This document shows, piece after piece, positions 17,801 to 53,245 of a stretch of DNA of 64,000 nt. The stretch lies in the NCBI GenBank assembly GCA_000002445.1, contig AE017150.2, positions 160,001 to 224,000 of the forward strand, given 5' to 3'. The notes beneath the pieces are model-generated. The model saw nothing but the letters and a program-made list of their open reading frames with translations, did not search any database and was not told where the DNA came from. Within the stretch, counting starts at the first letter, position 1. Every line of letters starts with the position of its first letter. The position numbers and the translations under genes were made by a program. Source of the stretch: Trypanosoma brucei. Lineage: Eukaryota.

Positions 17801-18560
17801 GCGTGTCGCAACAGTTGGGACTGTTTGTATTGTTGGTCCTATCGCTGCATGTTGCGGGTTACACCATCGGCACTGTGGAGGCACACTCGGGTTGATCTTC
17901 CGCACCCTCTTGAATTGCATACTGCGGAATACTGAAAGAGTTATATGGCCAACCCTTCTGCGAGGTGAGCACAGCAATCTCTAAATTACCGTGACGAGGC
18001 AGTGGGTCGCACAAGTCAAAAGGCGTGTGACTGACATTCACCTCCTCTTCTGTCCACAACTCGGGTTTGCCGTCACAATTACCCACTACCTTCATGCCAA
18101 GAGGTAAATCATTGTGACCCGACTCCACATAACCCCATGTCGCATTGTATATGGAATCATATACTCCTTTCAGTTCTGCACCACCAGCTGTTTGGTCAGC
18201 TCGTTCCCTTGCCTCTTTGGCAGTATCCAATGCCGCATCCAGCATTGCTCTCGCCCTGGGACCAACAAATTCCCTTATTTGCGCTTTTGCCATCTCCTCC
18301 CATTGCTGCATGTCTTAAATTCTATTACGAGGCAGATCAATAACTGCCCTTGGTAATTGAAACTCATCAAGCCGCTGTATCCTGTATTTCTTCAAGAACA
18401 TTAGCATTAATATATTTTCCCGGATTCTGAACAAACAAAAACATGGCCACATTCTCTGTTTTATACGTGTTTGAGAAGTATTGATTCAAAATTTCATGCA
18501 GTTTCATTTCATCCAAGCTCGCATAATCTTCCAGCAGCACATCCTCAATAGAACTGTTAA
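14885..18560 (-). pseudogene. RHS pseudogene interrupted by an ingi 3' fragment. It is a composite of a C-terminal part (14885-16336), the ingi fragment (16339-about 17895) and an N-terminal part (about 17895-18560).
   Basis: The C-part is a 466-aa in-frame RHS C-terminal region (MYVVSGKAYVF...NRGGNNA). Upstream of it, the codons LILLYKLLHYESSQL abut the ingi tail. The N-part (ORF 17859-18311 plus frameshifted upstream sequence to about 18560) matches the RHS N-terminal region (KAQIREFVGP...GVYDSIYNATWGYVESGHNDLPLGMKVV...LEIAVLTSQKGWPYNSF). It is lost roughly 180 bp short of the GIGKS motif. Confidence 0.75.
16339..17895 (-). mobile_element. ingi non-LTR retroposon, 3' fragment of about 1.6 kb. 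It comprises the C-terminal C2H2 zinc-finger part of the ingi ORF, the 3' UTR and an A8 tail. The 5' part is absent.
   Basis: The 3' terminal sequence (ggaattttcttcgtgccttcgtgagagtttc...gatgctatcggtctggcgactgtggcagagtctccc) is the same as the 3' halves of the two RIME copies, and is followed by a T8 run on the plus strand (16339-16346). The minus-strand ORF 16838-17977 contains at least five C2H2 fingers (CTICASKF..HHLRTIH, CDLCEASF..HKKFKH, CGVCQKVL..HCKAFH, CPTCGRQC..HQKKMNG, CTECDATY..HMVNKH). The 5' boundary is approximate, within about 50 bp. Confidence 0.7.
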
Positions 18561-19638
18561 TTGATCAAGTTGGCCCTTTTTCGCCTCCACGCAGTCAATT
18601 CAAAAAATATATTGCCGCATGCAACCTATTACTATGGAAACGCCTTATTGAATTCCACACTTCTGAAAACTTGCCCCCTGATTCTTCACAAGCTTGCGAT
18701 AAAAGCATAAACAAAAATAGAATCAGAAACAGAGACAGAGACAGTTTACACTGTAGAAAAGGACACCACAGTGAGTCACTCATTCTAGGAAGATAATCAC
18801 AAAAGCAAACACCCTCAAAAAGACAGCTCAGCGCCATAAAGCAGAACCTACTTACTACTAATAAGGAGTTGTGCCCCTTCCCTGCCAGTAAAGACACAAC
18901 ATTCCCCAACAAACACAGTGGAAGATCACAAGACTTATGACCCCTCCATACTAACCTAAACAAGACAGCGTGAATCACAATTGCATGCAATGCGCTAAGA
19001 ACCCAAAACGGTTCCGCACATTTGCCTCTGAGGATCCCTACTCAATCGCACCCCTACGCGGGAATCAATATTCTGCCTGTCACAAAATAACACAGCGGAC
19101 AGCAGAAGGAAAGGGGGAAAATAAAGAAACCCATCACAACACATAAGGATTTTAATGGGAACTTAAAGGAAACCTTCTAGATGAGAATGCTAACACCCAT
19201 ACCACAACAGTGCTCACAATCCTCTTGTATATCAGTGTTTAATTAGTTTTTCACAAAATGATTTGATAATCGTAACGATTCAAGGAATAAAAAAATGTAA
19301 ATGATAAGACACGACGCAACAAGCTGCCACATTGCCATTAATGGATGTATGTAATACCATTGTTACTATCCATTTCATTGTGACAACACATGCAAAATAC
19401 AATCGATACCACGGATTTCGTACGCCTTCCGTCGTGCGGTGAATCGCAGAGTGGATGTAAACAGTTGCGAAAGGATTACACCAACGCAACTGCAAGTTCG
19501 TTATGCTGCCAGGAACCTGTCCAGGATATATGATGAGTGAACTCCATTACCCAGACAAAAAATGTGACGCCTCCTCTTGCCCTTTCATTCGTTCTTCACA
19601 GTGTTTACCTCGTTGTTGGCTTGCCTGAGGTTCGTCAA

Positions 19639-21663
19639 TTACCTTCGGCCCACAGCAGCCACCGCAAGCATTTTGGTAACTATGTTATCCTCATACTGCA
19701 CATGGTACTGCTGCACATTGTTCTTCCAGAATCCCTCCACAAACTGGTGACTGCGGTGCTTTGCCTTACCCTGCGTAATTTCACACTTCTGCTCAGACCT
19801 CATCGCTGTGGATTCGAAGTGCTGAACGTAAATGATTTCCCAGTGAAACATCTCAGTAATTTCCTTCAACTGTTCAACGGTAGCCTCATTCTGGTGACCT
19901 CCCCCCTCCGCACTTGGAAAGAGGGATTGTAACAAATGAATGAATTCGTCGGTTGCTGTGTCATGGCTGCTGGCAACAGTAAACTGCAACAACACAATAG
20001 TTTTCTTCCCTATGGTTCCTGAAGCCTGTGCAGCCTGCTTTTCATCAACAATAAAGAATGCATCCGCTACGGGGTAGTTGGGAATGCATGGCACATATAA
20101 TTCCACCGGAGCCCCCTTCGACTCAGCCCAGTTGATGTCACCTGACACTGTGTTTGGTCGACAAGCATTGAGGAGGTCATCCCTTACGTGTTGCAAAATG
20201 CTTTTGCGTGTCCTCGTGCGCCTGGCCCTTTCATTTGCTGGAAGTTTCGTTATTAGACTTACGAAGCAAGTTAACACTCTGGGGGAACACAAATATTTAA
20301 TTGCATTCTTCTCAAAATAATGCCCGATGACAGATGCGTCCCGCGTCATACCAGACACCAGTGCCCACTCCTCAGCAATGCCGGAAAACACTACATTCAA
20401 AATTCTTTTCTTTATAGATTCAGAGTGAGGTACGCATATGTATATCTCACTATTGTTTCTCCCACAGGCACGAACAATCTTCACGAGTTTGTGAGATGCG
20501 TCACTTTCTCTCCATCCGCCTTTGTTACCCACCACGCCAATATAGAGTTCACGTCGCTCATGGGATTTGATGGAATTTATTTCATTGTCTATGTCGTCCT
20601 CACGCGTGGCATGCTTTGCTTCATCGAACACATAACGAAGTGAAGGTCCAACATGCTCCACACGGTTCTCATACATGTTCCACTTTTCCCTCAACTCAAC
20701 AGGCGTGGCTTGAGGAAAAAGCTTGGGTCCCACACGTGAGAAGAAAGCCCGCATTTCACTCATTTCCCAGCAGTTAACAACAATACGTGCACATCTTTCC
20801 CTCTGCTGGAACCAGCTGTCAAAATTTCTTTCATTATGTGAACTGATCAAAATGCTTCCCCATTTTGGAGCCACATCTGCCGGTGGCTGCTCACCTTTGT
20901 TGACGAAGTCATAAATAATATAACCACGTGTATTAGATGATATATTCTTCATAAACGTTATAGCCGCTTCTTTACTGTACTCCCTAACTCTGCCAACGCC
21001 ACCACCACCTGATTTCTCAAATATATATGCGGCTACACCACGGAAGTACGCAACAACAGGTAACTCTTCCGCATCATAATGCAGTAACTTGTAGAGGATA
21101 AAAGAACCAAAATTCTGAGATTTTCCAATCCCCGGGTTACCAATGGCAAGGTATGATCGTGGAAAATAAAGACATCTTGGCATAACACGTTGTGTACGCC
21201 ATAATTCAATTCCACTCCTTACAACATTCCATACACGGAGCTCTTCTCTGCGAATGAATATGTCACTGTTACTTCCCCGGGCAAAGCCTGTATATGGCCA
21301 ACCCATTTCTGAGGTAAGAACCAACAGCTCAACTCCTTTAGTGCGTTCCGGCTTCTGTTCAAGAGCTTCCTCAATTTCAGGCACGACATTAACTTCCTCA
21401 TCCTTCCACATCAAACCCTCATTGGGCATTCCATCAACCAAGCTCATTCCCAATGTTTGAGTTCCATCGTCGATAATAATATGACTCAATTTCGCATCAT
21501 AAATGGTATCGTATAATTTCTCTTCGAGAGACTTGCCCTCTCCGGTTTCTGATGGGTTCTCGTTTTCTCGGCCGGCTTGTCTCTTCATCGGGCGGTACGC
21601 ACCATTCAACCATCCATTTAAAACATTCCGAGTATCTCCCACACTACCGCCGTTCTGATTCAT
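19639..21663 (-). CDS. RHS: Retrotransposon hot spot protein (RHS), intact 674-aa ORF. N-terminal type is MNQNGG and C-terminal type ends ...VAAVGRR.
   Basis: It is a full-length ORF with the GNPGIGKSQNFGSF P-loop followed by ILYKLLHYDAEELPVVAYF. It is about 95% identical to the 675-aa paralogue at 45540-47567. An upstream U-rich tract with AG on the transcribed strand is consistent with a trans-splice acceptor. Confidence 0.85.
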   Translation of the reverse strand: MNQNGGSVGDTRNVLNGWLNGAYRPMKRQAGRENENPSETGEGKSLEEKLYDTIYDAKLSHIIIDDGTQTLGMSLVDGMPNEGLMWKDEEVNVVPEIEEALEQKPERTKGVELLVLTSEMGWPYTGFARGSNSDIFIRREELRVWNVVRSGIELWRTQRVMPRCLYFPRSYLAIGNPGIGKSQNFGSFILYKLLHYDAEELPVVAYFRGVAAYIFEKSGGGGVGRVREYSKEAAITFMKNISSNTRGYIIYDFVNKGEQPPADVAPKWGSILISSHNERNFDSWFQQRERCARIVVNCWEMSEMRAFFSRVGPKLFPQATPVELREKWNMYENRVEHVGPSLRYVFDEAKHATREDDIDNEINSIKSHERRELYIGVVGNKGGWRESDASHKLVKIVRACGRNNSEIYICVPHSESIKKRILNVVFSGIAEEWALVSGMTRDASVIGHYFEKNAIKYLCSPRVLTCFVSLITKLPANERARRTRTRKSILQHVRDDLLNACRPNTVSGDINWAESKGAPVELYVPCIPNYPVADAFFIVDEKQAAQASGTIGKKTIVLLQFTVASSHDTATDEFIHLLQSLFPSAEGGGHQNEATVEQLKEITEMFHWEIIYVQHFESTAMRSEQKCEITQGKAKHRSHQFVEGFWKNNVQQYHVQYEDNIVTKMLAVAAVGRR

Positions 21664-24600
21664 TTCACTCTCCGAATAATAATCTTAACTGAGTGTGTTG
21701 TGTTATTTCCTTTCTTTGTAACATAAATAATAAAAAAAAATTAAGATGAGGGAATTTAAAATGGATACGCTTCTAAACCAAAGCAAATATACAATAAATG
21801 AATATCAGGAATTAATATGGCAGATGGAAACTATTTACTAAAATTGAGATTCAATACAAATCTTATCATGTGTTAAGAACTCACAGCAACTTAAGCACAA
21901 ATGAGGTATGACAGTATGAATAAACATTTCTGTTTGGAGGAAAACTCAAACAACAATTCCCATTCATAAAACACAATCATTTCAGAAAAAATAATATACT
22001 TAGATATATATAAGTATGTATTGAAAAGCAAAAAAAATAAATAAATGTGGCATTGCCATGAAAAACAGGAAATAATAGTTTTAGTGATAAGCTATGCAAA
22101 ACGTATACTCAGTTAAAGGTACTCATGTGCATAATGAAGGCGCTTCACATTAAGAAATAATACAAACAACTATCAGAATTTGCGTATAATCTCACACGAA
22201 CCGTCACTCGGAATGGCATTTTGTCATAACTTCCTAATGTGGAAAAACTACTTCTAATACATACTCTCACACTCCGAATCAGTACACAGTGTGCAAATGA
22301 AAGTACGAGGTATCAAAAAAAAAAAACAATAATAATCGCCGTAAAAAGTAAAACCAATGAAAATAAAATCTTATACATCAAAGAGGAAACTCTCACCTGA
22401 CGAACAAATGCTGCTCACTTTCTTTATTTAAGTGATCCTTTTTTTTTTTGCAGCCATGGAACCATGAATCTAAGAAATATATATGAAGGCACGAATGATA
22501 TTTGTTTTGCTTTGGTATTGGAGCATCTTGCCATGCGTCTGCTTTTGTGCCTTAGTGAACCTCAAAGAAACCAAAGGCTCACGGAAGGGAACAAATATAT
22601 TTGTGGGAATAATAATTCAATATTAGGCTTCTTTTGAGGAGTGTGCTGAGTGGAATAATGGTGAAAAAGAAGTATTGAAAATTTATGCCACATGGGCAAA
22701 TGCTTTACAATATTTTCTCGCTGTCTGAAAATATGAAATATAGGGAATATATAAGGAACCAGAAACATAGGGAATATATGAAGTATAAGGAAATATATCA
22801 AATATAAGAAAATATATGATATATTCTGAAGTGCCGGATGTGTTTGTGCGTGTCTTCGTATGTGTTCTCTGCTTTATATATCACTAAATATTTTACACAA
22901 TTCCTTTTACTTTGCGTATGCTAATCGCTTGTTTCTCCCTATATAAATTAGTGGAAATATCCATTAGAGAAATAATAATTTACTTTTTTTCTTTTCCCTT
23001 CTCTTCCTTTCCCGCTAATGTTTCACCGTCTATTTTCATTCCTTATAAATATTGTAAATTTCATTTTGTTACTGTAACTATTTCCAAAAAAAAGTGTAAG
23101 TAAGAAACTTTAGTATTACATATCATAATATCTCTAAACTCCTCTTTTGTCATGTTAAGCTACTAATATTTTTATTTCCCATTCATTTTATTCAGCAGAA
23201 CATACAAAACCCCTCAAAAGTCCTTCCTTGTTTTTTTTCCTCAACATCATAATATACCTTGTGGAATATACAAATATATAATAACCATAAATGTGTTATA
23301 CATCTTCACAACATCAGAAACTTCACAAAATAATTGTGTTCCTCAATAAGCAGTGGCTGTGTTTCCTTTTACTTTCTATCAGAGTCAAACTAATTAATTA
23401 ATTACTAATAACTTCCTCCAGATATATTGCTTCTATTTTCTTGGATTATTCAGCAGCGTAACACCGGAGTCTTGAAATAAAGAGTCACAGTTCAAAGAAT
23501 ACAAAACAGTAAAAAAAATTAACAGAGACTCGCACCTTCACATTTGGTTGCATTTGGATACATCAAACGCATTTATTCGCCTCCTTGTGTTTTCTTTTTG
23601 GGGTGGGAGGAGTAAATGCAAAATGTATCAAGTTGACGAGTAGCAGAAATACAACACTTGATATAATTTCACTTACATATAAGCTTTCTTTTCCAACTTT
23701 ATTCCAATTCATAATATTTTGATAGCAATGTAATGCAGTATTCAGCCATAAACATTTTAACCATAAATATAGTAACTAATGTGTGAATGGTAACCCATGG
23801 CGATACATTCCATATGGAACAATACCACATTGTTAAATATACGCATGGAATTAAAACTATAGCACTAAATTGAAAATGAAAAAATAAAAGAGAGAAAGAT
23901 ATGAATTATCAAGAAAGGCATATTCTTCACTAACATGCACTTGTTTCAATATAATCATAATTTGAAGTTACGCTAAATGATAAGTGACCCAATATTCTGA
24001 AATGACACAATAACAATGATTCCATTATAGCAACTGTAAAATAATGATATGCAATAAAATAAATGATAAAAATAAATTAAAATACAGCAAGCAGTGCAGA
24101 ATATATTCTATTGCTATATATAAACATTTGCAAACAGATGAATACCTTTACTCATTGGAAGAAAATAATTAAATTCAAACTTCCTATGATTCTGCCAGTG
24201 TTTGTCGGCTACATGTGGGACTCAAAAAAAACAAAAAGTTTATTTTAAATAAACATGAAGAAAAGAAAAACTTCGCATGAAACCATAAGGGTATCCGTGT
24301 GAGTTATTCGCTACTGTCAAACATAGTTAACTTCACAACCCTCAAGAAAGAGAGAAATAATAAAAGTAAAAGTAAAATTTCAAGTAAAAAAATAAAATAA
24401 AAAGTAAGGAAATATAACATAATTATGCTTAACTAACTGTAATGTGAGGAATGTAAAAATAACAAAATGTTACTCACAATTTAATGTTATCAATGTTTTC
24501 CTTCACAAACGAAAACTGTCACATCTCAATGTGTTCTTTCAAATTAATGTAACGGAACCAGATATGTTTGTATAATATTCTACAATGTCATTTGGCATAT

Positions 24601-25096
24601 CCGATGCTCACTCAAAAAAAAACTTATTCGTTTTGTTGCGATGTAGCTGTTGACAGTGTTGTGCTCTTTTTCTTTTATTTTATTTTTTTTTAACATACCG
24701 CTCCGCACTTCCGTAATCCCCTCAATATTCCTGCAGTTCCCATCATAAAAGATACAAAAGAAATCCATCAAAATAAAGTAACTGGAGTCCAAGATGCTGT
24801 AGAGCACAATGTATTTATTTTGAATAATGGAATCCTGTGATATCAAAGACAATCATCTGCAATGAATAAACTGAAACATTCATTGACTCATGCCACTAAA
24901 ATAATAATTAAATTGTTAAACACATGTTCCCATCGTGTGGTAAGTAATTCAAACAATTCTGTGGCCACATGAAATACTCGAAGAAAAAGGAAACGTATAC
25001 AATGCATAAGCCATTAGTAAAGTATAAATACAGTTTTTGGTATCGAATCCATCATATGTTACAAAGCCGCATTTCACTAACACACAAGAGCAAAAT
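21664..25096. repeat. S cassette, copy 1 (about 3.4 kb AT-rich intergenic unit). The RHS 5' flank lies at its low-coordinate end. It sits between an intact or chimeric MNQNGG-type RHS and a truncated RHS.
   Basis: It is nearly identical to 32861-36317 and 47568-50946. It contains an imperfect GGAATATAT-like minisatellite (about 22700-22830) and a conserved spurious ORF (24580-24852). Confidence 0.8.
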
Positions 25097-26844
25097 TTAA
25101 CTCAACATCATATTTCGAATCATCAGTGATAGAGCTTGGCAACTGTACGATTCGATTCCTCCAACATTTGCCTTCACTCTTATAACCTTCACCAACTTGT
25201 CCGTAACTTCATTGTTCTTCCAGGCAGCCGTATGCTCAATAATATCATTATAGGAATATTCACCCGATTTCTTCATAGTTTCCAACGCATCATGAACTCT
25301 TTTCAGACGCCATTCATAACAGCTTAAAACAAATATATAACGAGGCAAAAGCCCAATTGAATTAATACGTCCCTCCACTATTCTTTACACTCATCTTCCA
25401 TTTCCTTCCTCAATTCGTGTCTTCTTCTGTTGGACACCTTTTCCCTTGCATGTATTGACAGTTTTTTCCATGCCACAAATGCCTTCATGTCACGCACATC
25501 ATCACAGTTTATAATAATTTGGCGGCCTCCCCTATTTGTAGTCCAGTTACCAAAACGGACACTATTCGGAGAAGTGAAAATAGTTACACCCCAAACATCA
25601 GAGGGAAGTTGAGTGTAAGGCTGCTGCGTTTCGTACCTTATGTCCATAATGATGTGTCCTCTGTTTTCAAATTTCATTTTATTTATGGCGTTGACCGCAG
25701 CTCTCAAATATTCGTACCGCACAACCCTTCCCTCTTTCATCACCCTTTCTGTTATATATTAAGTAGGCGATCGTGTCTGTGAAATATGCAACAACATCAA
25801 GCATTCCTTCATGGAAGTGAAGCAATGAATGAAGCAAAAATGATCCAAGGCCACATGATTTACCAATTCCAGACGTGCCAATAACAATATGTATCAGTGG
25901 TCTGTGAGCTGTCCTTTCCACCCACCATGTCTGCAGCCCTTTTTCGCCTTTATACCACACGCGCATAATTTCACGACGGATGTATACGTGCTGAAATACT
26001 GCTTTGCGCCCCGTAGTGTAATCCAATGCAAACCTGTTGTATGGCCAACCCTTCTCCGAAGTGAGAACAAAAATTTCCAAACCATCAGGCCTCTCCTCAA
26101 TCTCTGCATCAACATTGGTAGGATCACGAGTTACATCAACCCCCGCTTCGGTCCAAATGCGCTGTGGCCTTCCATCGAACACTTTCATTCCAAGTGGCTC
26201 TTCATTATAACCCGACATCACATAACTCCATTTCGCATTATATATGGATTCATACAATCCTTTCAGTACGACAGCACCACCAGCTGTTTGGGCAGCTCGT
26301 TTCCTTGCAATGCTTCCTTGAGTGCATTATCCAACATGTTAGTGACAATAATCCAAGTCTGCTCTCCATTTCTCAGTCCACGAATATCCGCCTGTAACCT
26401 GGCCTTTACTTCCTCATTTGCTTGTTGCCACTGCTGAAGATTTAATATTCCCTCTCTGAACAACAGGGGGTAAGCAGTAGCAAAAACTTTGTACGTCCAA
26501 AAGACAGGTAGAAAAAATATATCGTCCAGTATATCCTCTCTTTCAATGTATCGCTCCGGCTTTCTGGAAAACACAAACATTGATACATTATTTTCTTCAT
26601 TCACATTATATCTTCTGCCAACATTACGCCTCAAAAAATCATTCAACATCACATTTTCAGGATGTGGCAGACCTTTCAGCAAAACTGCTTCAACGCTGCT
26701 GAAAAGACTCCATTGTGGTTGGTTATTATTCTCCACTCGTTGCTGCACTGCTGGAGGTTCCGCATCGTTACGCGCAGCCTCCTCATGCCCTCGTCTCCTT
26801 CCCTCAATGTCACCCCTTCCTTCAATAGGAACCTGTTGATTCAT
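25097..26844 (-). pseudogene. RHS pseudogene with multiple frameshifts. It is the C-truncated type that ends RNMMLS, with N-terminal type MNQQVPIEG.
   Basis: Four consecutive ORFs in different frames (26263-26844, 25679-26257, 25378-25743 and 25097-25378) together align to the 579-aa ORF at 50947-52686. Confidence 0.8.
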
Positions 26845-27246
26845 TTCACTCTCCTAATAATAATCTTAATTGAGTGTGTTGTGTTATTTCCTTTCTTACT
26901 AACATAAATTTTAAAAAAGGGATAAAAGATGAGAGAATTTAAAATAGATACATTACTAAACCAAAGCAAATATAAAATAAATGAATATTAGGAATTAATA
27001 TGGCAGGTGGAAACTATTTATTGAAATTAAGATTCAATACAAATCTTATCATGTGTTGGGGCGTCACAGCAACTTAAGCACAAATAAGGTATTACAGTAT
27101 GAAAAAAATTTTCTGTTTGGAGGAAAACTCAAACAACAATTCCCAGTTACTTCACACCATCATTTCAGAAAAAACAATATGCTTATATATATGTATGTAT
27201 TGAAAACCAAAAAATAAATAAATGTGGCATTGCCATGAAAAAAAAA
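26845..27246 (-). promoter_or_regulatory. Conserved RHS 5'-flank block (putative 5' UTR, polypyrimidine tract and splice-acceptor region)
   Basis: A block of about 400 bp (tcactctcc.aataataatcttaa.tgagtgtgttgtgttatttcctttct...aaatgtggcattgccatgaaaaa) lies immediately upstream of five RHS start codons (21663, 26844, 32860, 47567 and 52686), regardless of N-terminal type. Confidence 0.5.
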
Positions 27247-30200: not shown

Positions 30201-30535
30201 TGTTCCTTTTATCATTGGCCTATAGATTCCTATCTCTACACGGATGTAAAATTTAGATTGTATAAATGAAAAGAAGATGTGAAGAGTTAGCGTAGTATAA
30301 TTCAATCCTTTAGTTGGTAATAGCACAAATGAAAACAAAACGTTATAATGTTTTCTTACGTCCGTCGATAACATTATATCTGTCTTTCTCTGTGCCCCTT
30401 AAGATTACGATGTGGCTTAACTCCAGTTACGCGTTAGCCGATAAAATACTACTTTTACTATTCCTTAGTCGTCTTCATTTCCACTTCCCTTCCCTCACCT
30501 CCGGCACTCAAGTGAATTATCACGTCCCTTTCCTT
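27247..30535. repeat. B cassette, copy 1 (about 3.3 kb), upstream of a B-type RHS
   Basis: It is collinear with 56356-59650. It contains small ORFs conserved between the copies (for example 29174-29461 vs 58213-58587, and 29734-30030 vs 58852-59112), none with a recognisable domain. Confidence 0.75.
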
Positions 30536-30724
30536 GCAGCAGCTGCGGAAGCTCATTACTGGTGGACAAACAATACACTTGGAATGGCGCAACGGGGCAC
30601 TTCAAGTTGTGATCATAAACCAAACCAGGTACAAAAACGAACCCGCTCCCCCTAATGGTTGTTTCCCTCCTCTTTAAGCATTTGTCACTCTTAACAGCAA
30701 TGCCGTGCACTGCTAAAAAAAAAA

Positions 30725-37298: not shown

Positions 37299-37336
<38 letters not shown>

Positions 37337-37589: not shown

Positions 37590-37601
37590 AATGAAGCAAA
37601 A
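37590..37601. repeat. RIME target-site duplication, right copy (AATGAAGCAAAA)
   Basis: It is identical to 37050-37061. Confidence 0.9.
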
Positions 37602-38472: not shown

Positions 38473-38496
38473 AGCAGCAGCAGCAGCAGCAGCAGC
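38473..38496 (-). repeat. (AGC)8 / (GCT)8 trinucleotide repeat encoding Ala8 in the RHS N-terminus
   Basis: It is translated as PPAPPAAAAAAAAQPP. The paralogue at about 62350 has only two Ala at this position. Confidence 0.9.
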
Positions 38497-38616
38497 AGGA
38501 GGAGCAGGCGGTACATTTTCATCCCGTGGCCTCCTCATGGGCCCTTCAATATTACCTGCCACTTGTTGGTTTGCATTATTTCCTTGTGGAGCTGCGGGAC
38601 TATTTGCTCTTGACAT

Positions 38617-44441: not shown

Positions 44442-45539
44442 ATTTTCAATAGAACTGTTAATTGATCAAGTTGGCCCTCTTCCTCCTCACGCAGTCTCTT
44501 CGAAAAATACAATGGCGCATGCAACCTATTACTATGGAAACGCCTTATTGAATTCCACACTTCTGAAAGCTTGCCCCCTGATTCCTCACAAGCTTGCGAT
44601 AAAAGCATAAACAAAAATAGAATCAGAAACAGAGACAGAGACAGTTTACACTGTAGAAAAGGACACCACAGTGAGTCACTCATTCTAGGAAGATAATCAC
44701 AAAAGCAAACACCCTCAAAAAGACAGCTCAGAGCCATAAAGCAGAACCTACTTACTACTAATAAGGAGTTGTGCCCCTTCCCTGCCAGTAAAGACACAAC
44801 ATTCCCCAACAAACACAGTGGAAGATCACAAGACTTATGACCCCTCCATACTAACCTAAACAAGACAGCGTGAATCACAATTGCATGCAATGCGCTAAGA
44901 ACTCGAAACGGTTCCGCACATTTGCCTCTGAGGATCCCTACTCAATCGCACCCCTACGCGGGAATCAATATTCTGCCTGTCACAAAATAACACAGCGGAC
45001 GGCAGAAGGAAAGGGGGAAAATAAAGAAAGCCATCACAACACATAAGGATTTTAATGGGAACTTACAGGAAACCTTCTAGATGAGAATGCTAACACCCAT
45101 ACAACAACAGTGCTCACAATCCTCTTGTATATCAGTGTTTAATTAGTGTTTCACAAAATGATTTGATAATCGTAACGATTCAAGGAATAAAAAAAATGTA
45201 AATGATAAGACACGACGCAACAAGCTGCCACATTGCCATTAATGGATGTATGTAATACCATTGTTACTATCCATTTCATTGTGACAACACACGCAAAATA
45301 CAATCGATACCACGGATTTCGTACGCCTTCCGTCGTGCGGTGAATCGCAGAGTGGATGTAAACAGTTGTGAAAGGATTACACCAACGCAACTGTAAGTTC
45401 GTTATGCTGCCAGAAGCCTGTCTAGGATATACGATGAGTGAACTTCATTACTCCAACACAAAATGTGACGCCTCCTCTTGCCCTTTCATTCGTTCTTCAC
45501 AGTGCTTACTTCATTGTTGGCTTGCCCGAGGTTCGCCAA

Positions 45540-47567
45540 TTACCTTCGGCCCGCAGCAGCCACCGCAAGCATTTTGATAACTATGTTATCCTCATACTGC
45601 ACATGGTACTGCTGCACATTGTTCTTCCAGAATCCCTCCACAAACTGGTGACTGCGGTGCTTTGCCTTACCCTGTGTAATTTCACACTTCTGCTCAGACC
45701 TCATCGCTGTGGATTCGAAGTGCTGAACGTAAATGATTTCCCAGTGAAACATCTCAGTAATTTCCTTCAACTGCTCAACGGTAGCCTCATTCTGGTGACC
45801 ACCCCCCTCCGCACTTGGCAAGAGGGATTGTAGCAAATGAATGAATTCGTCGGTTTTTGTGTCATGTCTGCTGGCAACAGTAAACTGCAACAACACAATA
45901 GTTTTCTTTCCTGTGGTTCCTGAAGCCTGTGCAGCCTGCTCGTCATCAACAATAAAGAATGCATCCGCTACGGGGTAGTTGGGAACGCATGGCACATATA
46001 ATTCCACCGGAGCCCCCTCCGACTCAGCCCAGTTGATGTCACCTGGCACTGTTTTTGGTCGACGGACTTTGAGGAGGCCATCCCTTACGTGTTGCAAAAT
46101 GCTTTTGCGTGTCCTCATGCGTCTGGCCCTTTCATTTGCTGGAAGTTTCGTTATTAGATTTACGAAGCAAGTTAACACTCTGGGGGAACACAAATATTTA
46201 ATTGCATTCTCCTCAAAATAAAGCCCGATGGCAGATGCATTCCGCATCATACCAGTTGTCAGTGCCCACTCCTCAGCAATGCCGGAAAACACTACATTCA
46301 AAATTCTTTTCTTTATAGATTCAGAATGCGCCACGCAGACATACGTGTCAAAGGAGTTTCCTTCTCGAGCTTTGATACGAACGATCTTCACGAGCTTATG
46401 TGATGCATCATTGTCCCTCCATTCCCCACAGTTGTCCAGTACCTTAGTATATATTCCGTACTTGTTACCTGCTACGATACTCCCCAATTCCCCGTCCACT
46501 GCAGTAAGCTCCTGTCCATACATTACTTCGTCAAACACATAACGAAGTGAAGGTCCGACACGCTCCACACGGTTCTCATACATGTTCCACTTTTCCCTCA
46601 ACTCAACATGCGTGGCTTGAGGAAAAAGCTTGGGTCCCATACGTGAGAAGAAAGCCCGCATTTCACTCATTTCCCAGCAGTTAACAACAATAAACGCGCC
46701 TTTACGTTGCTTTTGCCAGCTGTCAAAATTTCTCAAATTAGGTGAACTGATCAAAATGCTTCCCCATTTTGGAGCCACATCTGCCGGTGGCTGCTCGCCT
46801 TTTTTGACAAAGTCATAAATAACATAACCACGTGTATTAGATGATATAACCTTCATAAACGTTATAGCCGCTTCTTTACTGTACTCCCTAACTCTGCCAA
46901 CGCCACCACCACCTGATTTCTCAAATATATATGCGGCTACACCACGGAAGTACGCAACAACAGGTAACTCTTCCGCATCATAATGCAATAACTTGTAGAG
47001 GATAAAAGAACCCAAATTCTGAGATTTACCAATCCCAGGATTACCAATGGCAACGTATGATCGTGGTAAATAAGGACATCCCGGTATAACACGCTGGGCA
47101 CGCCATAATTCAATTCCACTCCTTACAAAATTCCATACACGGAGCTCTTCTCTGCGAATGAATATGTCACTGTTACTTCCCCGGGCAAAGTCTGTATATG
47201 GCCAACCCATTTCAGACGTAAGAACCAACAGCTCCACTCCTTTAGTGCGTTCCGGCTTCTGTTCAAGAGTTTCCTCAATTTCAGGCACGACATTAACTTC
47301 CTCATCCTTCCACATCAAACCCTCATTGGGCATTCCATCAACCATCCTCATTCCCAATGGTTGAGTTCCATCGTCGATAATAATATAACTCCATTTCGCA
47401 TTATAGGTGGAATCGTATAATTTCTCTTCGAGAGACTTGCCCTCTCCGGTTTCTGATGGGTTCTCGTTTTGTCGGCCGGCTTGTCTCTTCATTGGGCAGT
47501 ACGCACCATTCAACCATCCATTTAAAACATTCCGAGTATCTCCTACACTACCGCCGTTCTGATTCAT
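45540..47567 (-). CDS. RHS: Retrotransposon hot spot protein (RHS), intact 675-aa ORF. It is a paralogue of the RHS at 19639-21663.
   Basis: It is a full-length ORF with MNQNGG...GIGKSQNLGSFILYKLLHYDAEELPVVAYF...VAAAGRR. It is about 95% identical to copy 1, except for a divergent patch at about 46325-46545. Confidence 0.85.
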   Translation of the reverse strand: MNQNGGSVGDTRNVLNGWLNGAYCPMKRQAGRQNENPSETGEGKSLEEKLYDSTYNAKWSYIIIDDGTQPLGMRMVDGMPNEGLMWKDEEVNVVPEIEETLEQKPERTKGVELLVLTSEMGWPYTDFARGSNSDIFIRREELRVWNFVRSGIELWRAQRVIPGCPYLPRSYVAIGNPGIGKSQNLGSFILYKLLHYDAEELPVVAYFRGVAAYIFEKSGGGGVGRVREYSKEAAITFMKVISSNTRGYVIYDFVKKGEQPPADVAPKWGSILISSPNLRNFDSWQKQRKGAFIVVNCWEMSEMRAFFSRMGPKLFPQATHVELREKWNMYENRVERVGPSLRYVFDEVMYGQELTAVDGELGSIVAGNKYGIYTKVLDNCGEWRDNDASHKLVKIVRIKAREGNSFDTYVCVAHSESIKKRILNVVFSGIAEEWALTTGMMRNASAIGLYFEENAIKYLCSPRVLTCFVNLITKLPANERARRMRTRKSILQHVRDGLLKVRRPKTVPGDINWAESEGAPVELYVPCVPNYPVADAFFIVDDEQAAQASGTTGKKTIVLLQFTVASRHDTKTDEFIHLLQSLLPSAEGGGHQNEATVEQLKEITEMFHWEIIYVQHFESTAMRSEQKCEITQGKAKHRSHQFVEGFWKNNVQQYHVQYEDNIVIKMLAVAAAGRR

Positions 47568-50500
47568 TTCACTCTCTGAATAATAATCTTAATTGAGTGT
47601 GTTGTGTTATTTCCTTTCTTTGTAACATAAATTAAAAAAGAATTAAGATGAGAGAATTTAAAATGGATACGCTTCTAAACCAAATCAAATATACAAAAAT
47701 GAATATTAGGAATTAATATGGCAGATGGAAACTATTTATTGAAATTAGGATTCAATACAAATCTTATCATGTGTTGGGGTGTCACGGCAACTTAAGCACA
47801 AATAAGGTATGACAGTATGAATAAACATTTCTGTTTGGAGGAAAACTCAAACAACAATTCTCAGCTACTGCACACCATCATTCCAGAAAAAATAATATAC
47901 TTAGATATATTTATGTATTGAAAAGCAAAAAAATAAATAAATGTGGCATTGCCATGAAAAATGGGAAACAATAGCTTTACTCATAAGCTATGTAAAACGT
48001 AGAATACTCGATTAAAGTTACTCATGTGCATGATGAAGGCGCTTCACATTAAGAAATAGTACAAACAACTATCAGAACTTGCGCATAATCTCACATGAGC
48101 CGTCACTCGGAATGACATTTTGTCATAACTTCCTAATGTGGAAAAACTATTTCTAATGCCAACTCTCACGCTCCGAATCAGTACACAGTGTGCAAATGAG
48201 AGTACGAGATATCAAAACAATAATAATCGCCGTAAAAAGTAAAACCAATGAAAATAAAATCTTATACATCAAAGAGGAACCTCTCTCACCTGACGAACAA
48301 ATGCTGCTCACTTTCTTTATTCTTTATTTAAGTGATCCTGTGTTTTTTTTTCTTGCAACCATGGAGCCATGAATCTAAGAAATATATATATGTGAAGGCA
48401 TGAAAGATATTTGTTTTGCTTTGGTATTGGAGCACCTTGCCATGCGTCTGCTTTTGCGCCTTGGTGAAACTCAAAAGAAACGAAAGGCTCACGGAAGGGA
48501 ACAAATATATTTGTGGGAATAATAATTAAATATTAGGCCTCTTTTGAGGAGTGTGTTGAGTGTAATAATGGTGAAAAAGAAGTATTGAAAATTTATGCCA
48601 CATGGACAAATGCTTTACAATGTTTTCTCTCTATCTGAAAATATGGAATATATGGAATATATAAGGAACCAGAAACATAGGGAATATATGAAGTATAAGG
48701 AAATATATCAAATATAAGAAAATATTTGAAATATATGGAAAACATATGAGAGGCAAAAAGAATGGAAAGAAATTTGGTAAATGAATATACATTCATGGAA
48801 ATATCCATTAGAGAAATAATAATTTTCTTTTTCTCCTCCCTTCCCGCTAATGTTTCACCCGCTTATTTCCATTCCTTATAAATATTGTAAATTTCTTTTT
48901 GTTACTGTAACTATTTCCAAAAAAAAAGTGTAAGTAAGACACTTTAAGCATTACATATCATAATATCTCTAAACTCCTTCTATGTTATGTTAATCTACTA
49001 ATATTTTCATTCCCATTCATTTTATTCAGCAGAACATACAAAACCCCCTCAAAAGTCCTTCCTTGTTTTTTTCTTCAACATCATAACATATCTTGTGGAA
49101 TATACAAATATATAATAACCATAAATGTGTTATATATCATCACAACATCAGAAGCTTCACGACATAATTGTGTTCCTCAAGAAGCAGTGGTTGTGTTTCC
49201 TTTTATTTTATCTCATAGTCAAACTAATTAATTAATTACTAATAACATCCTCCAAAGATATTGCTTCTATTTTCTTGGATTGTTCAGCAGCGTAACACCG
49301 GAGTCTTGAAATAAAGAGTCACAGTTCAAAGAATACAAAACAGTAAAAAAAAAATAATAAACAGAGACTCGCACCTTCACAATTGGTTGCATTTGGATGC
49401 ATCAAACATATTTATTCGCCTCCTTGTGTTTTTTTTTTGGGGGTGGGAGGAGTAAATGCAAAATTATATCAAGTTGACGAGTAGTAGAAATACAACACTT
49501 GATATAATTTCACTTACATATAAGCTTTCTTTTCCCACTTTATTCCAATTCATAATATTTTGATAGCAATGTAATGCAGCATTCAGCTATAAACATTTTA
49601 ACCATAAATATAGTAACTAATGTGTGAATGGTAACCCATGGCGATACATTCCATATGGAACAATACCACATTGTTAAATATACGCATGGAATTAAAACTA
49701 TAGCACTAAATTGAAAATGAAAAATTAAAAGAGAAAAAGATATGAATTATCAAAAGAGGCATATTCTTCACTAAGATGCACTTGTTTCAATACAATCATA
49801 ATTTGAAATTACTTTAAATAATAAGTGGCCCAATATCCTGAAACGACACAATAACAATGATTTCATTATAGCATCTGTAAAATAATGATATGCAATAAAA
49901 TAAATAATAAAAATAAATTAAAATACAGCAAGCAGTGCAGAATATATTCTATTGCTATATATAAACATTTGCCAACAGATGAATACCTTTACGCATTGGA
50001 AGAAAATAATTAAATTCAAACTTCCAATGATTCTGCCCAGTGTTTGTCGGCTACATGTGGGACTCAAAAAAAAACAAAAATTTATTTTAAATAAACATGA
50101 AAAAAAGAAAAACTTCGCATGAAACCATAAGGGTACCCCTGTGAGTTATTCGCTACTGTCAAACATAGTTAACTTCACAACCCTCAAGAAAGAAAGAATT
50201 AAATAATAAAAGTAAAAGTAAAATTTCAAGTTAAAAAAATAAAAATAAAAATTAAGGAAATATAACATAATTATGCTTAACTAACTGTAATGTGAGGAAT
50301 GTAAAAATAACAAAATGTTACTCACAATTTAATGTTATCAATGTTTTCCTTCACAAACAAAAACTGTCACATCTCAATGTGTTCCTTCAAATTAATGTAA
50401 AGGAACCAGATATGTTTGTATAATATTCTACAATGTCATTTGGCATTGTCCGATGCTCACTCAAAAAAAAAAACTTATTCGTTTTGTTGCGATGTAGCTG

Positions 50501-50946
50501 TTGACAGTGTTGTGCTCTTTTTCTTTTTTTTTATTTTTTTTAACATACCGCTCCGCACTTCCGTAATCCCCTCAATATTCCTGCAGTTCCCATCATAAAA
50601 GATACAAAAGAAATCCATCAAAATAAAGTAACTGAAGTCCAAGATGCTGTAGATCGCAATGTATTTATTTTGAATAATGGAACCCTGTGATATCAAAGAC
50701 AATCATCTGCAATGAATAAACTGAAACATTCACTGACTCATGCCACTAAAATAATAATTAAATTGTTAAACACATGTTCCCATCGTGTGGTAAGTAATTC
50801 AAACAATTCTGTGACCACATGAAATACTCGAAGAAAAAGGAAACGTATACAATGCATAAGCCATTAGTAAAGTATAAATACAGTTTTTGGTATCGAATCC
50901 ATCATATGTTACAAAGCCGCATTTCACTAACACACAAGAGCACAAT
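47568..50946. repeat. S cassette, copy 3
   Basis: It is collinear with S1 and S2. Confidence 0.8.
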
Positions 50947-52686
50947 TTAACTCATCATCATATTTCGAATCATCAGTGATAGAGCTTGAAATTTAAATGA
51001 TTCGATAAATCCAACATTTCCCTTTACTCTTACAACCTTTACCAACTTTTCCGTAACTTCATTGTTCTTCCAGGCAGCGGTATGCTCAATAATATCATTA
51101 TAGGAATATTCATCCGACTTCTTCATAGTTTCCAACGCATCATGAACTCTTTTCAGACGCCATTCATAACAGCTTAAAACAAATATATAACGAGGCAAAA
51201 GCCCAATTGAATTAATACGTCCCTCCACTATTCTCCACTCATCTTCCATTTCCTTCCTCAATTCGTGTCTTCTTCTGTTGGATACCTTTTCCCTTGTATG
51301 TATTGACAGTTTTTTCCATGCCACAAATGCCTTCATGTCACGCACATCATCACAGTTTATAATAATTTGGCGGCCTCCCGTAATTGTAGTCCAGTTACCA
51401 AAGTGGGAACTATTCGGGGAAGTGAAAATAGTTACACTCCAAACATCAGAGGGAAGTTGAGTGTAAAGCTGCTGCATTGCATACCTTATGTCCATAATAA
51501 TGTGTCCTCTGTTTTCAAATTTCATTTTATTTATGGCGTTGACCGCAGCTCTCAAATATTCGTACCGCACAACCCTCCCTCTTTCATCACCCTTTCTGTT
51601 ATATATTAAGTAGGCGATCGTGTCTGTGAAATATGCAACAACATCAAGCATTCCTTCATGGAAGTGAAGCAACGAATGAAGCAAAAATGATCCAAGGCCA
51701 TATGATTTACCAATACCAGGTGTACCAATAACAATATGTATCGGTGGTCTGTGAGCTGTCTTTTCCACCCACCATGTTTTCAGATCTTTTTCGACTTTAT
51801 ACCACACGCGCACAATTTCACGACGGATGTATACGTGCTGAAATACTACTTTGCGCCCCGTAGTGTAATCCAATGCAAACCTGTTGTATGGCCAACCTTT
51901 CTCCGAAGTGAGAACAAAAATCTCCAAACCATCGGGTCTCTCCTCAATCTCTGCATCAACATTCGCAGGAAGAGGAGTTATATCCACATCTTCTTCGGTC
52001 CACATGCGCTGCGGCCTTCCATCGAACACTTTCATGCCAAGTGGCTCTGTATGATAACCCGACATCACATAACTCCATTTCGCATTATATATGGATTCAT
52101 ACAATCCTTTCAGTTCGACAGCACTACAAGCTGTTTGAGCAGCTCGTTCCCTTGCTTCATTGAGTGCATCATTCAACATGTTAGTGACAACAATCCAAAG
52201 GCGCTCTCCATCTCTCAGTCCACGAATATCCGCCTGTAACCTGACCTTTGCTTCCTCATCTGCTTGTTGCCAGCGCTGAAGATTCAATATTCCCTCATCC
52301 TCAAAGAAACCATAGACGCTGACAAAACGTTTGTACACTTTATACTCTGTTGTCGCGAATATTCGATTGAGCGCATTAACGTCATTAATATACTCTTCAG
52401 GTTCCAGTACGAACGCAGACATTGATACATTATTTTCTTCATTCACATTATATCTTCTGCCAAAATTACGCCTCAAAAAATCATTCAACATCATATTTCT
52501 AGGATGTGGCAGACCATTCAGCAAAACTGCGTCAACGCAGCTGAAAAGACCCCATTGTGGTTGGTTGTTATTCTCCACTCGTTGCTGCACTACTGGAGGT
52601 TCCGCATCGTTACGCGCAGCCTCCTCATTTTCTCGTCTCCTTCCCTCAATGTCACCCCTTCCTTCAATAGGAACCTGTTGATTCAT
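50947..52686 (-). CDS. RHS: RHS with an intact 579-aa ORF that is C-terminally truncated relative to full-length RHS (ends RNMMMS). It is either a short RHS variant or a pseudogene.
   Basis: It is an uninterrupted ORF, MNQQVPIEG...GIGKSYGLGSFLLHSLLHFHEGM...VKVVRVKGNVGFIESFKFQALSLMIRNMMMS*. The same stop position is shared by the copies at 25097 and 36318. Full-length RHS continues for roughly 300 aa beyond this point. Confidence 0.7.
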   Translation of the reverse strand: MNQQVPIEGRGDIEGRRRENEEAARNDAEPPVVQQRVENNNQPQWGLFSCVDAVLLNGLPHPRNMMLNDFLRRNFGRRYNVNEENNVSMSAFVLEPEEYINDVNALNRIFATTEYKVYKRFVSVYGFFEDEGILNLQRWQQADEEAKVRLQADIRGLRDGERLWIVVTNMLNDALNEARERAAQTACSAVELKGLYESIYNAKWSYVMSGYHTEPLGMKVFDGRPQRMWTEEDVDITPLPANVDAEIEERPDGLEIFVLTSEKGWPYNRFALDYTTGRKVVFQHVYIRREIVRVWYKVEKDLKTWWVEKTAHRPPIHIVIGTPGIGKSYGLGSFLLHSLLHFHEGMLDVVAYFTDTIAYLIYNRKGDERGRVVRYEYLRAAVNAINKMKFENRGHIIMDIRYAMQQLYTQLPSDVWSVTIFTSPNSSHFGNWTTITGGRQIIINCDDVRDMKAFVAWKKLSIHTREKVSNRRRHELRKEMEDEWRIVEGRINSIGLLPRYIFVLSCYEWRLKRVHDALETMKKSDEYSYNDIIEHTAAWKNNEVTEKLVKVVRVKGNVGFIESFKFQALSLMIRNMMMS

Positions 52687-53245
52687 TTCACTCTCCTAAT
52701 AATAATCTTAATTGAGTGTGTTGTGTTATTTCCTTTCTTTGTAACATAAATTTTAAAAAAGGGATAAAAGATGAGAGAATTTAAAATGGATACATTTCTA
52801 AACCAAAGCAAATATACAATCAATATCAGGAATTAATATGGCAGGTGGAAACTATTTACTAAAATTAGGATTCAATACAAATCTTATCATGTGTTTAGAA
52901 CTCACAGCAACTTAAGCACAAATAAGGTATGACAGTGCGAATAAACATTTCTCTTGGGAGGAAAAACTCAAACAACAATTCCCAGTTACTGCACACCATC
53001 ATTTCAGAAAAAATAATAATATACTTACATATATATTTATGAAAAAGCAAAGAAAATAAATGTGGCATTGCTATAAAAAATGGGAAACAATAGTTTTAGC
53101 GATAAATCATGCAAAACGTAGAATACTCGGTTGCATACAGAAAAGTGCCTTACTTACCTTACAAAATTAAAAATATACCAAAAGTAAAAATAAATATAAA
53201 ACATTATCTTCACACTTCAAACCAGACACGTATTAAGCAAGAGAA

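What the first reader, a model, noticed from the sequence alone, without database searches (positions are those of the whole stretch)
17895..53100. A 9.4-kb segmental duplication whose left boundary coincides with retroelement-interrupted RHS pseudogenes
17895-27240 and 43595-53100 are collinear across an RHS N-part, an intergenic region, an intact RHS, the S cassette, a truncated RHS and the 5' flank. In copy 1 the duplicated N-part is joined through an ingi fragment to a C-part ending ...GNNA. In copy 2 the same N-part is joined through a RIME to a different C-part ending ...GPAD. The duplication edge therefore sits exactly at the retroelement. This is what is expected if ingi/RIME copies, which share termini, act as ectopic recombination substrates that shuffle RHS halves.
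Basis: partly seen in the sequence, partly recalled or inferred. Interest (0 to 1): 0.65.

Follow-up and report, generated by a model that had tools for sequence, protein, structure and literature searches.

The report
Duplicated RHS gene block in trypanosome
This is an ordinary, already described kind of repeat-rich trypanosome gene cluster: a large block of RHS genes is present twice, and one copy ends where a broken gene was patched onto the inside of a mobile element.

Summary
The duplication is real: 17896-27243 matches 43794-53080 at 92.3% identity over 9.2 kb. It is only the best-kept part of a larger tandem repeat with a period of about 25.9 kb. That repeat runs on, with two large indels, to the end of the window.

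The window is a Trypanosoma brucei-group RHS cluster, with its genes on the minus strand.

- **C-parts:** they are unrelated at DNA level (55% identity, the same as shuffled sequence; 29-30% at protein level). A boundary therefore exists.
- **Edge position:** the edge touches a retroelement only in copy 1.
- **Copy 1 junction:** an RHS2-type N-part is cut at about residue 253. It is joined, across a 9-nt imperfect microhomology, to nucleotide about 3701 of a 5254-nt ingi. That is the interior of the element, not a terminus shared with RIME. The same junction is present in T. equiperdum.
- **Copy 2:** this is not a shuffled gene. Both halves are RHS2-type, and an uninterrupted RHS2 gene in T. 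equiperdum spans the site.
- **Exchange between elements:** it does occur, but it is seen elsewhere. The copy-2 RIME and a T. equiperdum ingi share one tail-less 3' junction and 7 private substitutions.

This biology was published in 2002-2011, so interest is low.

The parts
17896..27243 (.).
   Evidence: Self-BLAST. Global alignment gives 92.3% identity.
43794..53080 (.). Duplication, copy 2. The true left end of homology is 43794, not 43595.
14885..16335 (-). C-part C1. It is RHS1-like and starts exactly at the canonical hot-spot (TACTGTTATACA, 16324-16335). It ends ...GGNNA.
   Evidence: Pfam RHSP profile positions 34-311. 70% aa identity to P0001/P0002, whose cluster holds 'RHS1'. Sequence.
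16336..17895 (-). 5'-truncated ingi, covering element nt ~3710-5254, with a short A tail. It carries the C2H2 zinc-finger part of the ingi ORF.
   Evidence: 96.3% identity to the full-length ingi of L002 over 1556 nt. Pfam zf-C2H2.
17896..17904 (-). Junction microhomology TGCGGAAGA. The N-part parent reads TGCGGAGGA and the ingi parent reads TGCGAAAGA.
   Evidence: Only 0.15% of N-part/ingi position pairs reach 7/9 matches. The same junction is present in T. equiperdum L001.
17896..18660 (-). RHS2-type N-part, copy 1 (pseudogene psi-A), cut at about aa 253 of RHS2
   Evidence: tblastn with P0013: aa 92-253 at 82% identity, aa 1-94 at 56%. Pfam RHS_N positions 1-85 of 127.
19639..21663 (-). Intact RHS gene, 674 aa (copy 1)
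25055..26844 (-). C-terminally truncated, frame-broken RHS (copy 1)
27238..32707 (.). Continuation of the duplication in unit 1. It holds an RPB2 pseudogene segment and an RHS with in-frame stops (30725-32860).
   Evidence: Matches 56345-61884 in three blocks at 83-94% identity.
32682..37061 (.). Third copy of the module 'RHS 5' end + AT-rich spacer + truncated RHS C-part'
   Evidence: 93.0% identity to 21485-25839 and 90-94% to 47385-51686.
37062..37589 (-). RIME with a perfect 12-nt target-site duplication, TTTTGCTTCATT (37050-37061 and 37590-37601). This is a simple insertion.
   Evidence: The site is empty in T. equiperdum L001 and L004.
37589..40119 (.). Unit-1 segment that matches the last 2.5 kb of the window
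   Evidence: 87.6% identity to 61463-64000.
41606..43037 (-). C-part C2. It is RHS2-type, has one frame break near 42319-42322, and ends ...GGPAD.
   Evidence: 82-93% aa identity to P0013, whose cluster holds 'RHS2a'. 91-94% nt identity to T. equiperdum RHS2 loci.
43038..43508 (-). RIME lacking its first 18 nt and its A tail. No target-site duplication.
43509..43620 (-). 112-nt filler of unknown origin at the 5' junction of the RIME
   Evidence: Not a tRNA and no Rfam family. Unique in the window, L001 and L002.
43621..44560 (-). RHS2-type N-part, copy 2 (pseudogene psi-B). It runs through the P-loop GIGKS to within ~15 nt of the hot-spot.
   Evidence: tblastn with P0013 aa 1-323. Pfam RHS_N positions 1-127. 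Aligned with the uninterrupted RHS2 of L004.
45540..47567 (-). Intact RHS gene, 675 aa (copy 2)
50947..52686 (-). C-terminally truncated RHS, 579 aa ORF (copy 2)
53081..56344 (.). 3.3-kb stretch present in unit 2 and absent from unit 1. T. equiperdum chromosome-2 loci also carry it.
56345..64000 (.). Continuation of the duplication in unit 2, up to the window end. It holds the RPB2 pseudogene and an intact 880-aa RHS (59959-62601).

Best explanation
The window is a subtelomeric RHS (retrotransposon hot spot) gene cluster of a Trypanosoma brucei-group parasite. The reported 9.4-kb repeat is the best-preserved part of a head-to-tail duplication with a period of about 25.9 kb. That duplication extends at least over 17896-40119 and 43794-64000. 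It belongs to a family of RHS modules that also occurs on other chromosomes.

The modules are multiplied and reshuffled mainly by unequal homologous recombination and gene conversion between RHS paralogues.

Unit 2 keeps a complete RHS2-type pseudogene: N-part, 112-nt filler, RIME, then RHS2 C-part.

Unit 1 is the last unit before unique flanking DNA. It is cut inside that RHS2 N-part at about residue 253. There it is fused by microhomology-mediated joining (TGCGnAnGA) to nucleotide ~3701 of an ingi. That ingi sits at the canonical hot-spot of a different, RHS1-like gene.

The left edge of the duplication is therefore an illegitimate (MMEJ-type) junction that happens to lie inside a retroelement. 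It is not a crossover in the termini that ingi and RIME share.

The most economical history is a break in or near the ingi that was repaired by copying the neighbouring unit. Homology would have been used at one end and microhomology at the other. [quoted passage not shown]

Shown: the sequence relationships, the junction, its presence in a second genome, and the subfamily assignments. Inferred: the order of events and the repair pathway.
For: **Identity of the locus**
- Pfam RHSP, RHS_N and DUF7578 hit ten RHS genes or pseudogenes on the minus strand.

**Extent of the duplication**
-.

**Junction**
- The copy-1 N-part follows copy 2 up to 17896.
- From 17904 down to 16349 the sequence is 96.3% identical to ingi nt 3701-5254 of L002.
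- The 9 nt of overlap match 7/9 between the two parental proxies. Only 0.15% of position pairs reach this level.
- The same junction is present in T. equiperdum CM010672.1 (L001). That locus matches window 8043-26308 at 95-97% identity. The junction is therefore neither an assembly artefact nor recent.
- L001 is closer to copy 1 (95.2%) than to copy 2 (92.6-93.7%).

**Subfamilies**
- The N-parts are 75-82% aa identical to P0013, and C2 is 82-93% identical to it. The P0013 cluster contains 'RHS2a'.
- The next-best N-type reaches only 47-59% identity.
- C1 is 70% identical to P0001, whose cluster contains 'RHS1'.
- An uninterrupted RHS2 gene in L004 is collinear with the psi-B N-part (to 43621) and with C2 (from 43038), continuing on to 37585.

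**Other breakpoints without retroelements**
- 21485/32682/47385 lie in an RHS 5' end.
- About 26308 is a breakpoint in L001.
- 27243/53080 is an indel.

**Literature**
- MMEJ in T. brucei uses microhomologies of 5-20 bp, tolerates mismatches, and can form one end of a gene conversion. No NHEJ was detected (PMC3045614).
Against: - The pathway is inferred from a single junction.
- 7/9 microhomology is suggestive but not conclusive.
- The parental sequences are present-day proxies that have diverged by ~7%.
- A two-step history cannot be excluded: crossover between elements, followed by a microhomology deletion that removed the N-part end and 3.7 kb of ingi. The deletion would have erased its own evidence.
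- The window ends at 64000, so the full unit and any third unit cannot be seen.
- Identity along the repeat is patchy (77-98.6%), which shows later conversions that blur the original event.
Confidence: 0.6

Rival explanations
1. An ingi in one RHS pseudogene and a RIME or ingi in another recombined through their shared 250-bp termini. That placed the duplicated block next to a foreign C-part. A later deletion then removed the end of the N-part and the first 3.7 kb of the ingi in copy 1.
For: - The C-parts are unrelated while the N-parts are shared.
- Neither element has a target-site duplication.
- Exchange inside the shared 3' terminus is visible between the psi-B RIME and the L002 ingi.
- RHS2 C-parts are found behind ingi elements with two different VSG-side flanks in T. 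equiperdum.
- The literature states that ingi and RIME recombine and cause rearrangements (PMC2854126).
Against: - The observed junction is not in a shared terminus. It joins the interior of the RHS_N domain to the interior of the ingi, with microhomology.
- The model needs an extra event.
- The psi-A ingi 3' end carries none of the 7 private variants of the psi-B element.
- The copy-2 gene is RHS2 on both sides, so nothing was shuffled there.
Confidence: 0.22
2. A single retrotransposition event produced the junction. A 5'-truncated ingi inserted at the hot-spot of a pre-existing RHS2-N/RHS1-C hybrid gene. Its 5' end was joined by microhomology, and about 190 nt of target was deleted.
For: - The 3' end of the element is canonical: an A tail followed by the hot-spot sequence TACTGTTATACA.
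- Microhomology at the 5' junction and target deletions are typical of 5'-truncated LINE insertions in other organisms (own knowledge).
- Mosaic RHS genes without retroelements exist in the window.
Against: - No uninterrupted gene with this N/C combination was found among the proteins retrieved.
- All other ingi copies recovered here are full length.
- To my knowledge ingi is rarely 5'-truncated (not tested here).
- The model does not explain why the homology with unit 2 ends at exactly this point, unless the hybrid gene was itself the end of the unit.
Confidence: 0.12
3. The repeat or its edge is an assembly artefact of a repeat-rich region.
For: RHS clusters are hard to assemble. None of the three window proteins looked up has an exact match in the public collection.
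Against: - The two copies differ at 7.7% of aligned positions and by indels.
- The psi-A junction and 18 kb around it are present in an independent T. equiperdum assembly.
- The unit-2 arrangement is mirrored in T. equiperdum chromosome-2 loci.
Confidence: 0.02

Closest known systems
RHS pseudogenes of T. brucei with RIME or ingi at the hot-spot (Bringaud et al. 2002, Eukaryot Cell 1:137; summarised in PMC7563717)
   Same: - Clustered RHS genes and pseudogenes.
- Elements inserted a few codons after the P-loop, in the orientation of the gene, with a 12-nt duplicated target (37062-37589).
- Pseudogenes whose two halves belong to different subfamilies (psi-A).
   Different: - In psi-A the N-side junction is not at the hot-spot. 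It lies ~190 nt upstream in RHS_N and inside the ingi.
- Psi-B has a 112-nt filler and a RIME that lacks 18 nt at its 5' end.
- The original paper was not held in the library, so the comparison rests on a later paper's summary and on my memory of the abstract.
[quoted passage not shown]
   Same: A 9-nt microhomology with mismatches at the junction. The duplicated block has one illegitimate end and, presumably, one homologous end. The setting is subtelomeric.
   Different: Those events were induced by I-SceI in engineered strains and their deletions averaged 284 bp. Here the event is natural and old, it is shared with T. equiperdum, and it involves kilobases.
Rearrangements mediated by ingi and RIME (Berriman et al. 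2005, as cited in PMC2854126)
   Same: An element-to-element exchange is seen: the psi-B RIME and the L002 ingi share their 3' end by descent.
   Different: That exchange does not form the edge of the duplication that was reported.
Mosaic RHS genes formed by unequal crossing-over and gene conversion in T. cruzi (PMC7563717)
   Same: Tandem units, patchy identity and converted patches inside intact genes (dS 0.02-0.07 against 0.37-0.56 within one gene pair).
   Different: Different species and different retroelements (L1Tc and NARTc).

Membership tests
RHS multigene family | RHS_N domain followed by the RHSP P-loop domain | tested here: met
   Pfam PF20445 and PF07999 at E values from 1e-10 to 1e-108 on ten loci.
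RHS multigene family | Retroelement insertion hot-spot a few codons downstream of the GxxGxGKS motif | tested here: met
   RIME 37062-37589 lies after GIGKSYGVGSFLLH with a 12-nt TSD. The ingi and RIME 3' ends in psi-A and psi-B are at the same relative position.
RHS2 subfamily (psi-B, and the N-part of psi-A) | C-terminal domain of RHS2 type. Subfamilies are defined by the C-terminal region. | tested here: met
   C2 is 82-93% aa identical to P0013, whose 90% cluster contains 'RHS2a' AAL14353.1.
RHS2 subfamily (psi-B, and the N-part of psi-A) | N-part contiguous with that C-part in an intact gene | tested here: met
   The uninterrupted RHS2 gene in L004 aligns to 44482-43621 and then 43038-41606. 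The far N-terminal ~150 codons are only 55-75% nt identical, so the N-part is itself a mosaic.
RHS1 subfamily (C1) | C-terminal domain of RHS1 type | tested here: inconclusive
   70% aa identity to P0001, whose cluster contains 'RHS1' AAL14360.1. Identity is 82% at nt level to the L004 RHS1 gene. This is the closest subfamily, but C1 is divergent.
ingi (autonomous non-LTR retrotransposon) | About 5.2 kb, with APE, RT, RNase H and zinc-finger coding capacity and an A tail | tested here: met
   The fragment 16336-17895 is 96.3% identical to nt 3701-5254 of a 5254-nt element that carries those Pfam domains. Only the 3' 30% is present.
RIME | About 500 bp, made of the first and last ~250 bp of ingi, with an A tail and a 12-nt TSD | tested here: met
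   Fully met by 37062-37589. For 43038-43508 the two halves match, but the first 18 nt, the tail and the TSD are missing.
Duplication by homologous recombination between retroelements | Breakpoint lies inside the sequence that the two elements share | tested here: not met
   The breakpoint is at ingi nt ~3701, outside the 250-bp termini shared with RIME, and inside RHS_N on the other side.
Duplication by homologous recombination between retroelements | Hybrid element at the junction between the two units | tested here: inconclusive
   The psi-B RIME shares its last ~165 nt with an ingi of another genome and groups with RIMEs upstream of that. Which of the two elements is the recombinant cannot be told.
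MMEJ junction | Microhomology of 5-20 bp, mismatches tolerated, at a junction between otherwise unrelated sequences | tested here: met
   TGCGGAAGA, with 7/9 matches between the parental proxies. Background frequency is 0.15%. Criterion taken from PMC3045614.
MMEJ junction | Dependence on the MMEJ machinery and independence from RAD51 | not testable with these tools
   Requires genetics.

The most novel reading that the evidence does not exclude
[quoted passage not shown] If so, retroelements at RHS hot-spots would act as fragile sites that seed module duplication, rather than as homology substrates.
Probability: 0.3. Interest if true: 0.3.

Novelty: already known. Interest (0 to 1): 0.15.

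Why it matters
RHS clusters are among the most plastic parts of African trypanosome chromosomes, and they border the VSG arrays used for antigenic variation. This locus illustrates three known repair routes acting side by side:
- recombination between RHS paralogues;
- exchange between ingi and RIME termini;
- microhomology-mediated joining.

It adds a worked example in which the edge of a large duplication is a microhomology junction shared by two genomes. It does not open a new question.

Tried and rejected
**Look-ups that found nothing**
- Exact look-ups of three window proteins (LRR protein, 675-aa RHS, 880-aa RHS) found no record. The source genome is therefore not in the collection.
- P0013 and P0038 (TREU927 RHS2) could not be located on contigs. 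T. equiperdum loci were used instead.
- A protein search with the copy-2 N-part returned a single hit, P0012. The RHS2 relationship emerged only from the C2 search and local BLAST.
- Bringaud et al. 2002 is not held in the paper library.

**The 112-nt filler**
- I suspected a tRNA-derived insert. ARAGORN found no tRNA.
- Rfam at E<=10 gave only spurious miRNA hits inside the RIME.
- There is no second copy in the window, L001 or L002. I left it unexplained.

**Uninformative comparisons**
- The 3' halves of the psi-A and psi-B elements are 92.9% identical. All element pairs are 92-95% identical, so this says nothing about whether the duplication runs through the element.
- I looked for a step change in identity to the intact RHS2 gene exactly at the RIME site. 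Identity is patchy on both sides, so there was no clear result.
- ORFs in the left flank (8-15 kb) and in the AT-rich spacer have no Pfam match. Tandem-repeat search found only short AT-rich repeats.


Full report
**What the window is**

Pfam finds the RHS_N and RHSP (P-loop) domains of the retrotransposon hot spot family, often with DUF7578, in ten genes or pseudogenes on the minus strand between 14.9 kb and 62.6 kb. A further inverted fragment lies at 7775-8329, and a leucine-rich-repeat gene at 69-3038. The closest proteins are from T. brucei TREU927 and T. equiperdum. No exact copy of three window proteins is on record, so the strain itself is not in the collection.

**Checking the observation**

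- Self-BLAST gives four collinear blocks, 17896-27243 against 43794-53080, at 91-94% identity.
- A global alignment gives 92.3% identity (8508 matches, 707 mismatches). Identity per 500 nt ranges from 77% to 98.6%.
- The listed content is correct: RHS N-part, intact RHS of 674 or 675 aa, AT-rich spacer, truncated RHS.
- The two C-part ORFs end GGNNA and GGPAD.
- The C-parts (14885-16335 and 41606-43037) are 55.5% identical in a global nucleotide alignment, against 55.7% for shuffled sequence. They are 29-30% identical as proteins.

**Three corrections**

1. Homology in copy 2 begins at 43794. The figure 43595 is only an ORF end.
2. 27240/53100 is not the right end of the duplication. After a 3.3-kb stretch present only in unit 2 (53081-56344), collinearity resumes:
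   - 27238-30538 against 56345-59652 (94.4%)
   - 31011-31521 against 60179-60689
   - 31917-32707 against 61088-61884
   - 37589-40119 against 61463-64000, which reaches the window end

   Unit 1 carries an extra 4.9 kb (about 32707-37589). This is a third copy of the module 'RHS 5' end, spacer, truncated C-part' (32682-37061, 93%) plus a RIME. The repeat is therefore a head-to-tail duplication with a period of about 25.9 kb.
3. The edge touches a retroelement only in copy 1.

**Anatomy of the left edge, copy 1 (psi-A)**

Read on the minus strand, the N-part follows copy 2 up to ...CAAGAGGGTGCGGAAGA. It then continues as TCAACCCGAGTGTGCC....

A full-length ingi recovered from T. equiperdum (L002 4167-9420, 5254 nt, with endonuclease, RT, RNase H and zinc-finger ORFs) matches window 17904-16349 at 96.3% from its nucleotide 3701 to its end. 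The nine bases at 17896-17904 belong to both alignments:

| Sequence | Nine bases |
|---|---|
| N-part parent | TGCGGAGGA |
| ingi parent | TGCGAAAGA |
| Product | TGCGGAAGA |

. Only 0.15% of all position pairs between the N-part and ingi reach 7/9 matches.

The RHS side of the break is at Pfam RHS_N position 85 of 127, about 190 nt upstream of the canonical hot-spot. The 3' end of the ingi is canonical: a short A tail, then TACTGTTATACA, then C1 in frame with the family.

**Anatomy, copy 2 (psi-B)**

The N-part runs on for 173 nt past the point where copy 1 stops, through the P-loop GSAGIGKS, to 43621. It is followed by 112 nt of unrelated filler (43509-43620). Next comes a RIME that lacks its first 18 nt and its A tail (43038-43508). 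After that come TTCTGCTCCAAG and the C-part. Neither element has a target-site duplication. The RIME at 37062-37589, by contrast, has a perfect 12-nt duplication.

**Are the halves shuffled?**

C2 is 82-93% identical to P0013, an intact 789-aa TREU927 protein. Its 90% cluster contains the GenBank entry named RHS2a.

The shared N-part is 75-82% identical to the same protein over residues 92-319. The next-best N-types reach only 47-59% identity.

In T. equiperdum locus L004 an uninterrupted RHS2 gene aligns with window 44482-43621 and then directly with 43038-37585. Psi-B is therefore an RHS2-family gene split by a RIME, not a product of half-swapping. Its far N-terminal part is divergent, however, and its 5' junction has been damaged.

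C1 is 70% identical to P0001 and P0002, and the P0001 cluster contains RHS1. Only psi-A is chimeric: RHS2-type N, RHS1-like C.

**Evidence from a second genome**

T. equiperdum CM010672.1 (L001) matches window 8043-26308 at 95-97% identity and has the identical N-part/ingi junction. The junction is therefore real and old. L001 is closer to copy 1 (95.2%) than to copy 2 (92.6-93.7%), so the duplication predates that split.

To the right of about 26308, L001 switches to a different RHS N-terminal type. At the position of the 37062-37589 RIME it has an empty site. This shows rearrangement between RHS paralogues with no element involved.

**Does exchange between elements occur at all?**

Yes. L002 carries a full ingi directly in front of an RHS2 C-part that is 94.5% identical to psi-B's C2 and its downstream DNA. 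The 3' junction is the same unusual tail-less one, GAAGAAAAT|TTCTGCTCCAAG.

In the last ~165 nt the L002 ingi and the psi-B RIME share 7 substitutions found in none of the four other element ends compared. Upstream of that, psi-B groups with RIMEs and L002 with ingis. One of the two is therefore a recombinant inside the shared 3' terminus.

L002 and L003 also show RHS2 C-parts behind ingis whose 5' flanks are two different VSG-side sequences, without target duplications. It is not, however, what made the edge at 17896.

**Most likely mechanism**

T. brucei repairs breaks by homologous recombination or by microhomology-mediated end joining. MMEJ there uses microhomologies of 5-20 bp and tolerates mismatches. 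Gene conversions with homology at one end and microhomology at the other have been observed (PMC3045614).

The structure fits that pattern. A break in or near the ingi of an RHS1-like pseudogene was healed by copying the neighbouring unit and sealed at TGCGnAnGA.

Two alternatives remain open:
- an element-to-element crossover followed by a microhomology deletion;
- a 5'-truncated ingi insertion with target deletion into a pre-existing hybrid gene.

**Verdict**

The duplication is real but larger and more complex than reported. Its coincidence with a retroelement holds for one copy only and reflects illegitimate joining. Retroelement-mediated shuffling is real in this family but is seen elsewhere. 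All of this lies within published knowledge of RHS clusters. Interest is low.

Noticed in passing
window 57020-58611 (-); second copy expected near 27910-29500: Pseudogene of an RPB2-type RNA polymerase second-largest subunit. Pfam Rpb2 domain 4 and four pieces of domain 6 lie in collinear order, broken by stops and frameshifts, inside the duplicated intergenic segment.
   Followed up: partly
window 43509-43620 (-): 112-nt filler of unknown origin between the RHS2 N-part and a RIME that lacks 18 nt at its 5' end. It is not a tRNA, matches no Rfam family, and is unique in the window, L001 and L002. Its ends carry a loose direct repeat, GGCTTACGCT and AGCTTACACT.
   Followed up: partly
window 37050-37601; L001 ~2510-2522; L004 ~15843-15859: RIME with a perfect 12-nt target-site duplication (TTTTGCTTCATT) and a 34-nt internal A run. 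The corresponding site is empty in two T. equiperdum loci, so this is a simple insertion in the third copy of the module.
   Followed up: yes
window 19639-21663 vs 45540-47567: The two intact RHS paralogues have dS of 0.02-0.07 near their ends (overall dN/dS 0.55), but dS of 0.37-0.56 in codons 300-450. The patch was converted from another paralogue. T. equiperdum L001 carries the copy-1 version.
   Followed up: partly
L002 4167-10852 and L003 4118-10801 (T. equiperdum CM010673.1 and CM010672.1): Full-length ingi directly in front of an RHS2 C-part, next to VSG genes. The two loci have different 5' flanks and no target duplication. These are RHS halves at the border of VSG arrays.
   Followed up: partly
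window 53081-56344; 40038-40808: A 3.3-kb AT-rich stretch is present in unit 2 and in T. equiperdum chromosome-2 loci but absent from unit 1. Its part 53246-54018 recurs at 40038-40808 at 96% identity.
   Followed up: no
window 18885-19383 vs the matching stretch of copy 2: This intergenic stretch between the intact RHS and the RHS2 N-part is 98.6% identical between the copies, while its neighbours are 88-93% identical. It reflects either a recent conversion or a constrained element.
   Followed up: no
window 7775-8329 (+): An inverted RHS fragment, about 83% identical to 21043-21411 and 46947-47315, lies in the otherwise ORF-poor left flank between the LRR gene and the cluster.
   Followed up: no
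L001 11791-11936: The T. equiperdum ortholog of the psi-A ingi fragment carries about 135 nt of extra sequence in the ingi 3' region that is absent from the window.
   Followed up: no
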